Below are positions 15,745 through 29,118 of a stretch of DNA of 64,000 bases, piece after piece. The translations under genes and the position numbers were made by a program. A model generated the notes under the pieces. It saw only the letters and a program-made list of their open reading frames with translations, did not search any database and was not told the origin of the DNA. Each line of letters opens with the position of its first letter. Within the stretch, counting starts at the first letter, position 1. The stretch lies in assembly GCF_054482595.1 (NCBI RefSeq), contig NZ_CM137008.1. One strand, written 5' to 3'.

Positions 15745-17769
<2,025 letters not shown>

Positions 17770-26292: not shown

Positions 26293-26300
26293 CAGGCGTA

Positions 26301-26331
26301 AAAAAACCGGGGAATTATCCCCGGCTTTTTT
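26301..26331. terminator. Bidirectional intrinsic terminator between convergent pdeA and nupC
   Basis: aaaaaaccgggg-aattat-ccccggctttttt. Confidence 0.8.
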
Positions 26332-26341
26332 ATGTATGGTC

Positions 26342-27544
26342 TTACAGCACCAGTGCTGCGATTGACGCAGACAGCACACTCACCAGGGTAGAGCCGTAAA
26401 CCAGTTTCAGACCGAAGCGAGAAACCACATTACCTTGCTCTTCATTCAGGCCTTTAACTGCACCTGCAATAATTCCGATTGAAGAGAAGTTAGCGAAGGA
26501 AACCAGGAACACAGAGATGATGCCTTCAGCACGCGGAGAGAGCGTGGAAGCAATTTTCTGCAGATCCATCATCGCAACGAACTCGTTAGAAACCAGTTTG
26601 GTCGCCATGATACTGCCCACTTGCAGTGCTTCGCTGGACGGAACACCCATCACCCATGCAATCGGATAGAAGATGTAGCCCAGGATGCCCTGGAAGGAGA
26701 TGCTGTAGCCAAACCAGCCAGTCACGGTGGCAAACAGTGCGTTCAGCGCGGCGATCAGGGCGATGAAGCCAATCAGCATTGCGGCAACGATAATGGCAAC
26801 TTTGAAACCTGCCAGAATGTATTCACCCAGCATTTCGAAGAAGCTCTGACCTTCGTGCAGGTTGGACATCTGAATGTTTTCTTCACTGGCATCAACACGG
26901 TAAGGGTTGATCAGCGACAGCACGATAAAGGTGCTGAACATGTTCAGTACCAGCGCCGCAACGACATATTTCGGCTCCAGCATGGTCATGTATGCACCAA
27001 CGATGGACATAGATACGGTGGACATCGCCGTTGCTGCCATGGTGTACATACGATTGCGGGAGATTTTGCCGAGGATATCTTTATAGGCAATAAAGTTTTC
27101 AGACTGACCCAGAATCAGAGAGCTGACGGCGTTAAAGGATTCCAGTTTGCCCATGCCGTTGACTTTGGAGAGCAGGAAACCAATTGCGCGGATAATCACC
27201 GGCAACACGCGAATGTGCTGGAGAATACCGATCAGTGCAGAGATAAAGACGATTGGGCACAGCACTTTCAGGAAGAAGAATGCCAGGCCTTGATCATTCA
27301 TGCTACCAAAGACGAAGTTAGTCCCTTCGTTGGCAAATCCGAGCAGTTTTTCGAACATTTCGGAGAAGCCTTTCACGAAGCCTAAACCAACGTCGGAGTT
27401 CAGGAAGAACCACGCCAGTAACACTTCGATAACAAGCAGTTGAATAACATAACGGATACGAATTTTTTTGCGGTCGCTGCTTACCAGCAGTGCGAGAATC
27501 GCAACAACGGCAAGTGCCAGTACAAAATGAAGGACGCGGTCCAT
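26342..27544 (-). CDS. nupC: Nucleoside:H+ symporter (CNT family)
   Basis: 400 aa from internal ATG ([20 protein letters not shown]...); ORF-track extension rejected. Confidence 0.93.
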
Positions 27545-27812
27545 ATTTGCTCCAAATATGAGGCAGGTTAAATTTCCGTGCACATTCTATGTAACATGGT
27601 TAAGGAAAACGAGATCTGACACACACTATAATGACGTCCTGTGACAAGCTTCAAAAATAGTGAGCTGTCATACATTTCTGCTATGTTGTGTATGGAAGCT
27701 GAAAGTTATGTAAATGTGCTAACATTAAACATAACCATAACATTCAAGTCATCAATCTTTTCGTAGTCATAATCCTGGTCTATCAGAGAAATCACCACAA
27801 CCCATTTAAATG

Positions 27813-27830
27813 AATTTGATAATCATTCTC
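27813..27830 (+). promoter_or_regulatory. Fur box in mntH promoter
   Basis: aatttgataatcattctc resembles the Fur consensus GATAATGATAATCATTATC. Confidence 0.6.
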
Positions 27831-27845
27831 GTTTGGCATAGCATG

Positions 27846-27867
27846 AAACATAGCAAAGGCTATGTTT
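27846..27867 (+). promoter_or_regulatory. MntR operator palindrome upstream of mntH
   Basis: aaacatagc-aaag-gctatgttt perfect inverted repeat 13 nt upstream of the mntH start. Confidence 0.65.
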
Positions 27868-27870
27868 TAG

Positions 27871-29118
<1,248 letters not shown>

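What the first reader, a model, noticed from the sequence alone, without database searches (positions are those of the whole stretch)
27813..27867. Dual metal-regulatory architecture upstream of mntH (Fur box plus MntR palindrome)
A Fur-box-like sequence (27813..27830) and a perfect MntR-type palindrome AAACATAGC-N4-GCTATGTTT (27846..27867) lie in tandem just upstream of the mntH start, consistent with iron- and manganese-dependent repression. They sit at the end of a 335-bp region shared with divergent nupC.
Basis: partly seen in the sequence, partly recalled or inferred. Interest (0 to 1): 0.25.

Follow-up and report, generated by a model that had tools for sequence, protein, structure and literature searches.

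The report
Known Fur/MntR operators of mntH promoter
This is the well-characterised control region of the E. coli manganese importer gene mntH, where an iron sensor (Fur) and a manganese sensor (MntR) each bind their own DNA site to shut the gene off; it is real, conserved and already in the textbooks.

Summary
The window is Escherichia coli; the nupC-mntH intergenic region is identical to O157:H7. A 19-mer at 27812-27830 matches the Fur consensus at 15 of 19 positions. A perfect 9-N4-9 palindrome, AAACATAGC-AAAG-GCTATGTTT, lies at 27846-27867, 12 nt before the mntH ATG (27880). The intergenic region is exactly 335 bp. Both boxes are far beyond chance and are kept at the same positions upstream of mntH in all 80 other Enterobacteriaceae species fetched. 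The palindrome core ATAGC-N4-GCTAT recurs at the mntS/rybA start and twice upstream of mntP, the other MntR targets.

The Fur box covers the -35 hexamer (TTGATA, 27816-21). The MntR box fills the gap between the conserved -10 (TAGCAT, 27839-44) and the Shine-Dalgarno sequence. Either metal-loaded repressor should therefore block RNA polymerase on its own.

All of this was published for E. coli and Salmonella in 2000-2002 and is curated in RegulonDB. Verdict: interpretation supported, already known, low interest.

Side note: the annotated small ORF YpeD (27810-27899) is written across both operators. Its apparent conservation is largely operator conservation.

The parts
26342..27544 (-). nupC coding sequence (nucleoside permease), divergent neighbour
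   Evidence: ORF list; RefSeq annotation of the identical O157:H7 locus; Pfam Nucleos_tra2_N/C
27545..27879 (.). 335-bp nupC-mntH intergenic region. The nupC-proximal half (27545 to about 27720) and the mntH-proximal part (27769-27879) are conserved and are separated by a poorly conserved trough at 27720-27768.
   Evidence: Per-column conservation over 80 Enterobacteriaceae sequences; present in 5424 of 5426 complete E. coli genomes
27769..27805 (+). OxyR-like 37-mer (ATAATCCTGGTCTAT-CAGAGAA-ATCACCACAACCCAT), immediately upstream of the -35; the H2O2-responsive activator site
   Evidence: It matches 13/20 specified positions of ATAGnTnnnAnCTAT-N7-ATAGnTnnnAnCTAT. That ties for the top score in the whole window (11 positions per strand score 13; none scores higher). 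The block 27780-27794 is strongly conserved. Literature: separate MntR, Fur and OxyR sites in the mntH promoter; OxyR activates mntH in RegulonDB.
27812..27830 (+). Fur box GAATTTGATAATCATTCTC (15/19 to consensus), overlapping the -35 hexamer and spacer
   Evidence: The core TTGATAATCATTC is kept at about -66 to -69 in nearly all 80 species; columns 27816-27830 are almost all at 95% or more. A Fur cluster is predicted at -56 of mntH in PMC2189734.
27816..27821 (+). -35 hexamer TTGATA of the proximal mntH promoter (inferred)
   Evidence: Promoter scan, 17-nt spacer; invariant across species; distance to the palindrome fixed at 29-30 nt
27839..27844 (+). -10 hexamer TAGCAT (inferred); it predicts a transcription start near 27851, inside the left arm of the palindrome
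   Evidence: Promoter scan. The TAnnnT pattern is kept in the species variants (TAGCAT, TAACAT, TAATAT, TAGCTT, TAGTTT, TAGCCT). No experimental TSS for this promoter could be retrieved.
27846..27867 (.). MntR operator: perfect palindrome AAACATAGC-AAAG-GCTATGTTT between the -10 and the Shine-Dalgarno sequence
   Evidence: Present with 0-3 mismatches at -31 to -35 from the ATG in 79 of the 80 other species and at -50 in one, L030. The left arm, the core and, with one exception, the AAAG spacer do not vary. The same core ATAGC-N4-GCTAT lies at the rybA/mntS 5' end and twice upstream of mntP in K-12.
27870..27873 (+). Shine-Dalgarno GAGG, 6 nt before the mntH ATG
   Evidence: Sequence; conserved GAGGCA block
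27880..29118 (+). mntH coding sequence (Nramp-family Mn2+/Fe2+:H+ importer)
   Evidence: ORF; Pfam Nramp E=2e-128; RefSeq annotation
27810..27899 (+). Annotated small ORF YpeD (29 aa), overlapping the Fur box, the MntR box and the first 20 nt of mntH; probably not part of the mechanism
   Evidence: RefSeq CDS; Pfam PF23644; ribosome-profiling paper; ORF integrity is not conserved

Best explanation
This is the core promoter/operator region of E. coli mntH, which encodes the Nramp-type manganese importer. It carries three independent transcription-factor sites on one sigma-70 promoter.

- Fe2+-loaded Fur binds the Fur box (27812-27830). This box contains the -35 hexamer TTGATA, so Fur competes with RNA polymerase for the promoter when iron is sufficient.
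- Mn2+-loaded MntR, a DtxR-family dimer, binds the palindrome AAACATAGC-N4-GCTATGTTT (27846-27867). The palindrome starts 2 bp after the -10 hexamer and spans the predicted transcription start. MntR therefore blocks open-complex formation or promoter escape when manganese is sufficient.
- The two operators are separated by 15 bp of variable sequence and do not overlap. Either repressor should suffice alone, so the gene is on only when both metals are low.
- Oxidised OxyR binds the 37-mer that abuts the -35 (27769-27805) and activates transcription under H2O2 stress.

Shown here: the sequences, their statistical excess, their position relative to conserved -35/-10/SD elements, their conservation in 80 species, and the recurrence of the MntR core at mntS and mntP. 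Taken from the literature: actual protein binding and Fe/Mn/H2O2-dependent regulation. Inferred: the exact transcription start (about 27851) and the steric mechanism.
For: Sequence and statistics.

Identity of the locus: the intergenic region is 100% identical to E. coli O157:H7, with mntH, nupC, ypeC and yfeO annotated; Pfam Nramp.

Phylogenetic footprint over 80 Enterobacteriaceae genomes: the palindrome has 0-3 mismatches and the Fur core TTGATAATCATTC is kept, both at fixed distances from the ATG. Conserved blocks at 27780-94, 27810-32, 27839-68 and 27870-75 are flanked by variable sequence.

Within E. coli, variation concentrates at 27831-27845 between the boxes, while the boxes themselves are invariant in the variant haplotypes examined.

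Promoter elements: -35 TTGATA and -10 TAGCAT with a 17-nt spacer. TAnnnT and a 16-17 nt spacer are kept across species.

Non-circular test of 'MntR-type': ATAGC-N4-GCTAT lies across the annotated rybA/mntS 5' end (L083 1555-1576) and twice at about 360-420 bp upstream of mntP (L084 1266-1287 and 1306-1327).

OxyR motif: top-scoring in the window.

Literature: separate MntR, Fur and OxyR sites, and independent action of Fur and MntR (PMC8632737; PMC9315381). RegulonDB interactions OxyR(+), Fur(-) and MntR(-) on mntH (PMC4207228). Fur repression of an mntH-lacZ fusion (PMC4676285). Fur cluster at -56 (PMC2189734). Fur/MntR double-mutant data in Salmonella (PMC8970401).
Against: No experimental transcription start for the proximal promoter could be retrieved. 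The one genome-wide TSS table I could read (Kim et al. 2012) lists only two weak mntH-strand starts, at -147 and -186. That would fit a proximal promoter that was repressed under their growth conditions (which I did not check), but it is not proof.

The primary papers (Patzer & Hantke 2001; Kehres et al. 2002; Waters et al. 2011) are not in the held library. The exact footprint limits therefore rest on reviews and on my memory of the abstracts.

The Fur match is 15/19, not perfect. The OxyR match is only 13/20.
Confidence: 0.95

Rival explanations
1. The palindrome acts mainly or additionally at the RNA level. In this reading, transcribed as AAACAUAGCAAAGGCUAUGUUUU, it forms a hairpin followed by U's in the mntH leader. 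That hairpin would be a terminator-like, Mn2+-responsive 'riboswitch', as proposed for Salmonella mntH (Shi, Zhao & Kong 2014). From my memory of the abstract, GCUAUG pairs alternatively with a duplicated CAUAGC.
For: [quoted passage not shown] The RNA hairpin is predicted at -9.4 kcal/mol, z = -5 against shuffles. A second CATAGC copy exists at 27837-27842. Weak distal TSSs at -147 and -186 would yield leaders that contain the whole palindrome.
Against: The conserved -10 (27839-44) places the proximal TSS inside the left arm. RNA starting at 27851 keeps only a 4-bp stem (-2.7 kcal/mol, z = +0.3).

There is no covariation. The left arm is invariant, and the right arm changes on one side only: C-G becomes C.A in about 60 of 81 sequences, and outer pairs are also lost. 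No compensatory change occurs.

The upstream CATAGC copy is present in only about 9 of 81 species and is mutated (CGTAGC/CGTAAC) in many E. coli.

The terminator scan found nothing. No Rfam family matches. A perfect DNA palindrome necessarily folds as RNA, so the z-score is not independent evidence.
Confidence: 0.15
2. The conservation of 27810-27899 reflects selection on the small protein YpeD (29 aa), whose ORF covers both boxes, rather than selection on operators.
For: YpeD is annotated in RefSeq and has a Pfam family, PF23644. It was called from ribosome-profiling data, with putative homologues in Salmonella and Citrobacter koseri (bioRxiv 10.1101/2021.07.02.450978).
Against: The ORF is cut to 8-11 codons in 44 of 83 sequences. 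In others it shifts frame, from KHSKGYV to LNIAKAIF, while the DNA of both boxes stays the same. A TAA-at-codon-9 haplotype with intact boxes occurs in 727 complete E. coli genomes. The conserved peptide stretches LIIIL and KHSKGY are simply the translations of TTGATAATCATTCTC and AAACATAGCAAAGGCTAT. The ATG lies upstream of the predicted proximal TSS.
Confidence: 0.03
3. The boxes are chance matches in an AT-rich intergenic region and have no regulatory role.
For: The region is AT-rich. The Fur consensus is AT-rich and degenerate, and a second 15/19 match occurs inside a coding region. Perfect 9-bp inverted repeats occur at about 11 places in the window.
Against: About 0.001 Fur-like hits are expected in 335 bp (scaled). 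Position and sequence are conserved across 80 species while neighbouring bases vary. The palindrome core recurs at the other MntR targets. The genetics are published.
Confidence: 0.01

Closest known systems
E. coli K-12 / Salmonella Typhimurium mntH promoter (Patzer & Hantke 2001, J Bacteriol 183:4806; Kehres et al. 2000, 2002)
   Same: It is the same locus. The K-12-like sequence is 99.1% identical over the intergenic region and identical across both boxes. The layout is the one described: OxyR site upstream of the -35, Fur box over the -35, and an inverted repeat between the -10 and the RBS. That layout is from my recollection of the Kehres 2002 abstract; the existence of three separate sites is confirmed in PMC8632737.
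   Different: Nothing substantive differs. This strain (O157:H7-like) differs from K-12 at about 3 of 334 intergenic positions, none in the boxes.
Other enterobacterial MntR operators: mntS/rybA promoter, mntP upstream sites, Salmonella/Shigella sitABCD
   Same: They share the core ATAGC-N4-GCTAT(A/G)T: AGATATAGCACAGGCTATATTA at mntS; GAATTTAGCCAAAGCTATGTTT and AGACATAGCTTAGGCTATATTA at mntP. sitABCD is also reported to carry MntR, Fur and OxyR elements (PMC9315381).
   Different: The mntH site is the only perfect 9+9 palindrome of the four. At mntP the sites lie far upstream and mediate activation rather than repression. I did not examine sitABCD.
Canonical Fur boxes (e.g. fhuA, fepA, entC promoters)
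   Same: The 19-bp AT-rich motif is built on GATAAT-type hexamers, overlaps the core promoter and mediates Fe2+-dependent repression.
   Different: The match is weaker (15/19). The predicted cluster is small: 2 sites over 25 bp and 19.9 bits, against up to 10 sites at the other Fur clusters listed in the same table.
yybP-ykoY Mn2+ riboswitch (mntP, alx leaders)
   Same: It provides manganese-responsive control of a manganese transporter gene in the same organism.
   Different: It is not present here. No Rfam match was found in 27400-28100 even at E<=1. The mntH leader from the proximal promoter would be only about 29 nt.

Membership tests
Fur operator (Fur box) | Match to the 19-bp consensus GATAATGATAATCATTATC / 7-1-7 TGATAATnATTATCA | tested here: met
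   15/19 at 27812-27830, against 0.19 such hits expected per 64 kb; 12/14 to the 7-1-7 form by direct reading
Fur operator (Fur box) | Overlaps the core promoter of a metal-acquisition gene | tested here: met
   It contains the -35 hexamer TTGATA found by the promoter scan, and the downstream gene is the Nramp importer mntH. The promoter assignment is inferred, not mapped.
Fur operator (Fur box) | Conserved in orthologous promoters | tested here: met
   The core TTGATAATCATTC is kept in nearly all 80 species at -64 to -69
Fur operator (Fur box) | Fur binding and Fe2+-dependent repression | not testable with these tools
   Literature only:
Enterobacterial MntR (DtxR-family) operator | Inverted repeat with core ATAGC-N4-GCTAT | tested here: met
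   Perfect 9-N4-9 at 27846-27867
Enterobacterial MntR (DtxR-family) operator | The same motif at other members of the MntR regulon | tested here: met
   Found at the rybA/mntS 5' end and twice upstream of mntP in K-12. About 0.01 such hits are expected per 3 kb at 4 or fewer mismatches (my calculation).
Enterobacterial MntR (DtxR-family) operator | Position compatible with repression (overlapping the -10/+1 region) | tested here: met
   It starts 2 bp after the -10 hexamer and ends 2 bp before the SD. The TSS is inferred.
Enterobacterial MntR (DtxR-family) operator | MntR binding and Mn2+-dependent repression | not testable with these tools
   Literature only:
OxyR binding site | Match to ATAGnTnnnAnCTAT-N7-ATAGnTnnnAnCTAT adjacent to the -35 | tested here: inconclusive
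   13/20 at 27769-27805, equal to the best score in the window, with the site ending 10 bp before the -35. Only the central part, 27780-94, is strongly conserved. Literature supports OxyR activation.
mntH-leader Mn2+ 'riboswitch'/terminator (Shi et al. 2014) | Leader RNA contains the whole hairpin plus the upstream CAUAGC copy | tested here: inconclusive
   This is true only for transcripts that start upstream of 27837. The conserved -10 predicts a start near 27851. Weak distal TSSs exist at 27694 and 27733.
mntH-leader Mn2+ 'riboswitch'/terminator (Shi et al. 2014) | Stem supported by compensatory changes; alternative pairing partner conserved | tested here: not met
   There are no compensatory changes, and one-sided changes break up to 4 outer pairs. 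The upstream CATAGC is present in about 9 of 81 species. No terminator call.
yybP-ykoY riboswitch | Match to Rfam covariance model | tested here: not met
   No match at E<=1 in 27400-28100

The most novel reading that the evidence does not exclude
Besides being DNA operators, the two boxes might matter at the RNA level. They are transcribed on rare long-leader mRNAs from the distal starts at -147 and -186. On those mRNAs they form the coding sequence of a translated upstream ORF (YpeD, which ends 20 nt inside mntH) and an 11-bp hairpin. uORF translation or hairpin formation could then add a post-transcriptional layer to mntH control in the E. coli/Salmonella lineages that keep the full ORF.
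Probability: 0.08. Interest if true: 0.3.

Novelty: already known. Interest (0 to 1): 0.07.

Why it matters
It matters little as a discovery. The Fur/MntR/OxyR control of mntH has been a standard example of combinatorial metalloregulation since 2000-2002 and is curated in RegulonDB. The check is still useful in two ways. It confirms that the first-stage reader can recognise true operators from sequence alone. It also gives a clean cross-species footprint, from 80 other species' genomes, of a promoter in which three regulators share about 100 bp. A small practical by-product concerns YpeD. The RefSeq 'YpeD' CDS and the Pfam family PF23644 sit exactly on these operators, so their sequence conservation should not be read as evidence for a conserved protein.

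Tried and rejected
1. Primary papers could not be read. Patzer & Hantke 2001, Kehres 2002, Anjem 2009, Waters 2011, Shi 2014 and Thomason 2015 are not held. I relied on reviews and curated summaries instead.
2. A full-text search for the half-site string AAACATAGC returned only unrelated papers. A search for 'mntHp' gave nothing useful.
3. I looked for an experimental proximal TSS. The Kim 2012 table lists only distal weak starts, and the Beauchene 2015 supplements are not held. The TSS therefore stays inferred.
4. The Fur consensus search with 3 or fewer mismatches found nothing. The box has 4 mismatches, which I found by script.
5. The Rfam scan gave only a chance snoRNA hit at E=0.88, so there is no known RNA family here.
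6. Alternative -10 hexamer: I considered GATAAT (27818-23) as a -10, which would give a longer leader compatible with the riboswitch model. I rejected it as the main promoter. By direct reading its -35 would be CCACAA (1/6), and the TAGCAT position shows the TAnnnT conservation.
7. YpeD coding constraint as the cause of conservation: rejected.
8. I first miscounted the intergenic length as 334 bp. This was corrected to 335 bp from the annotation and reading frame.

Full report
**Identity of the locus.** The window around the finding reads nupC (26342-27544, minus strand), a 335-bp intergenic region (27545-27879), and mntH (27880-29118, plus strand). The intergenic sequence is 100% identical to E. 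coli O157:H7 and is present in 5424 of 5426 complete E. coli genomes. RefSeq annotates the flanking genes as nucleoside permease NupC and an Nramp-family divalent metal transporter, MntH. Pfam agrees: Nramp at E=2e-128, and Nucleos_tra2_N/C for NupC. My first count of 334 bp was off by one, because the nupC ATG is at 27544-27542.

**The observation.** 27813-27830 is AATTTGATAATCATTCTC. With the preceding G (27812), the 19-mer matches the classical Fur consensus at 15 of 19 positions. The window holds two such matches with 4 or fewer mismatches, against 0.19 expected. The other match lies inside a 671-aa ORF. The expectation for the 335-bp intergenic region alone is about 0.001.

27846-27867 is AAACATAGC-AAAG-GCTATGTTT, a perfect 9+9 inverted repeat. 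Perfect 9-bp inverted repeats as a class are not rare in the window: about 11 places, against roughly 2 in shuffles. I did not characterise the other ones. The palindrome alone is therefore not decisive. The tests below are.

**Phylogenetic footprint.** I fetched mntH loci from 80 other Enterobacteriaceae species, including Escherichia, Citrobacter, Salmonella, Enterobacter, Klebsiella, Raoultella, Buttiauxella, Kosakonia and Atlantibacter.
- MntR box: the palindrome is present with 0-3 mismatches in all 81 sequences, at -31 to -35 from the ATG in all but one (L030, at -50). The left arm and the core ATAGC...GCTAT never vary, and the AAAG spacer varies in only one sequence (L048).
- Fur box: the core TTGATAATCATTC is kept at about -64 to -69 in nearly all sequences.
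- Conserved blocks: per-column conservation shows discrete blocks at 27780-94, 27810-32, 27839-68 and 27870-75. A poorly conserved trough at 27720-27768 separates the mntH control region from the well-conserved nupC control region.
- Within E. coli: variation in this 74-bp stretch concentrates at 27831-27845, between the two boxes, and the boxes are untouched in the variant haplotypes examined.

**Is the palindrome 'MntR-type'?** As a non-circular test I fetched the two other E. coli K-12 loci known to be MntR-controlled and searched them. The same core ATAGC-N4-GCTAT lies across the annotated 5' end of rybA/mntS (AGATATAGCACAGGCTATATTA). It also occurs twice about 360-420 bp upstream of mntP (GAATTTAGCCAAAGCTATGTTT and AGACATAGCTTAGGCTATATTA). 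About 0.01 hits per 3 kb are expected at that stringency (my calculation). The motif is therefore a regulon-wide operator.

**Promoter anatomy and mechanism.** The consensus scan finds -35 TTGATA (27816-21) and -10 TAGCAT (27839-44) with a 17-nt spacer. Across species the -35 is invariant. The -10 keeps TAnnnT in all variants (TAGCAT, TAACAT, TAATAT, TAGCTT and others), and the spacer stays at 16-17 nt.

This layout puts the Fur box over the -35 and spacer. It puts the MntR palindrome from 2 bp after the -10 to 2 bp before the Shine-Dalgarno GAGG (27870-73), spanning a predicted start near 27851. Each repressor can thus exclude or trap RNA polymerase on its own. That matches the published finding that Fur and MntR act independently (PMC8632737) and the Salmonella fur/mntR mutant data (PMC8970401). 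From memory, the Kehres et al. 2002 abstract describes this same layout: OxyR motif just upstream of the likely -35, Fur motif overlapping the -35, and inverted repeat between the likely -10 and the RBS. I could not open that paper.

The 37-mer at 27769-27805 matches the OxyR consensus at 13 of 20 specified positions. That equals the best score anywhere in the window. It ends 10 bp before the -35, and its centre is strongly conserved. Reviews and RegulonDB curation list OxyR as a direct activator of mntH. The architecture therefore has three parts: OxyR(+), Fur(-) and MntR(-).

**Literature status.** Dual repression of E. coli mntH by Fe-Fur and Mn-MntR is the title of Patzer & Hantke 2001. 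It is repeated in every review I opened. Chen et al. 2007 independently predicted a Fur cluster centred at -56 from the mntH start, which is about window 27824. The finding is already known.

**RNA-level rival.** Reviews cite Shi, Zhao & Kong 2014 for a terminator-like Mn2+-responsive element in the Salmonella mntH 5' UTR. From memory of that abstract, the switch sequence GCUAUG pairs with a duplicated CAUAGC. Those are the palindrome arms plus the extra CATAGC at 27837-42.

The palindrome does fold as RNA (-9.4 kcal/mol, z=-5), but any perfect DNA palindrome would. Several results count against the RNA reading:
- An RNA starting at the predicted +1 keeps only a 4-bp stem, no better than shuffles.
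- There are no compensatory changes. The right arm alone drifts (C-G becomes C.A in about 60 of 81 sequences).
- The upstream CATAGC is present in about 9 of 81 species and is mutated in many E. coli.
- There is no terminator call and no Rfam match.

Weak distal starts at -147 and -186 (window 27733 and 27694; Kim et al. 2012) could supply long leaders. A minor RNA role therefore cannot be excluded, and I give it about 0.15 as an additional layer.

**YpeD.** RefSeq annotates a 29-codon ORF, YpeD, at 27810-27899. It comes from a ribosome-profiling study that noted homologues in Salmonella and Citrobacter, and it has a Pfam family. It is written across both operators: LIIIL is the translation of the Fur core, and KHSKGY is the translation of the MntR box. 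In 44 of 83 sequences the ORF stops after 8-11 codons. In others it changes frame while the operator DNA is unchanged. 727 complete E. coli genomes carry a TAA at codon 9 with both boxes intact. Conservation of 'YpeD' is thus largely operator conservation. Translation may still occur, but it would have to come from the distal transcripts.

**Verdict.** The novelty class is 'already known', and interest is about 0.07.

Noticed in passing
window 27810-27899 (+): The annotated small ORF YpeD (29 aa; Pfam PF23644) overlaps the Fur box, the MntR box and the mntH start. The ORF is truncated to 8-11 codons or frame-shifted in most other enterobacteria, and 727 E. coli genomes carry a TAA at codon 9, while the operator DNA stays constant. 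Its conservation therefore appears to be a by-product of the operators.
   Followed up: yes
window 27694 and 27733 (+): A published TSS table (Kim et al. 2012, E. coli K-12) lists two weak mntH-strand starts at -186 and -147 from the ATG (11 and 5 reads) and none at the proximal Fur/MntR promoter. These long leaders would carry the YpeD start and the whole palindrome as RNA.
   Followed up: partly
window 27892 (-): The same table lists a nupC-strand TSS inside mntH codon 5 (13 reads, a 348-nt nupC leader). It would give an RNA antisense to the whole mntH promoter and operators. The main nupC TSS is at 27577 (-), 33 nt before the nupC ATG.
   Followed up: no
window 27831-27845: Within E. coli, the 15 bp between the Fur and MntR boxes is a local polymorphism hotspot: GTTTGGCATAGCATG versus ATTTAACGTAGCATG versus AATTAACGTAACATA. 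About 1000 genomes are 90-95% identical over the 74-bp query. The -10 positions T1, A2 and T6 are spared.
   Followed up: partly
window 27640-27700: The nupC-proximal half of the intergenic region is strongly conserved. By direct reading it contains two CRP-like half-palindromes: TGTGAcaagctTCAAA at about 27640-55 and AGTGAgctgtcATACA at about 27659-74. This would fit the known CytR/CRP control of nupC (from memory; not tested). It also contains an isolated MntR-like half-site, GCTATGTTG, at 27680-88 with no partner arm.
   Followed up: no
window 26293-26341: Here nupC and the convergent pdeA (yfeA) are only about 50 bp apart. In a K-12-like genome an IS4-like IS421-family transposase gene lies at this position just past the nupC 3' end (compare), so this window lacks that insertion.
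   Followed up: no
window 15802-15820: This is the only other 15/19 match to the Fur consensus in the window (CATCATGAATATCTTTATC, minus orientation). It lies about 50 nt inside a 671-aa ORF (15754-17769) and is probably a chance match.
   Followed up: partly
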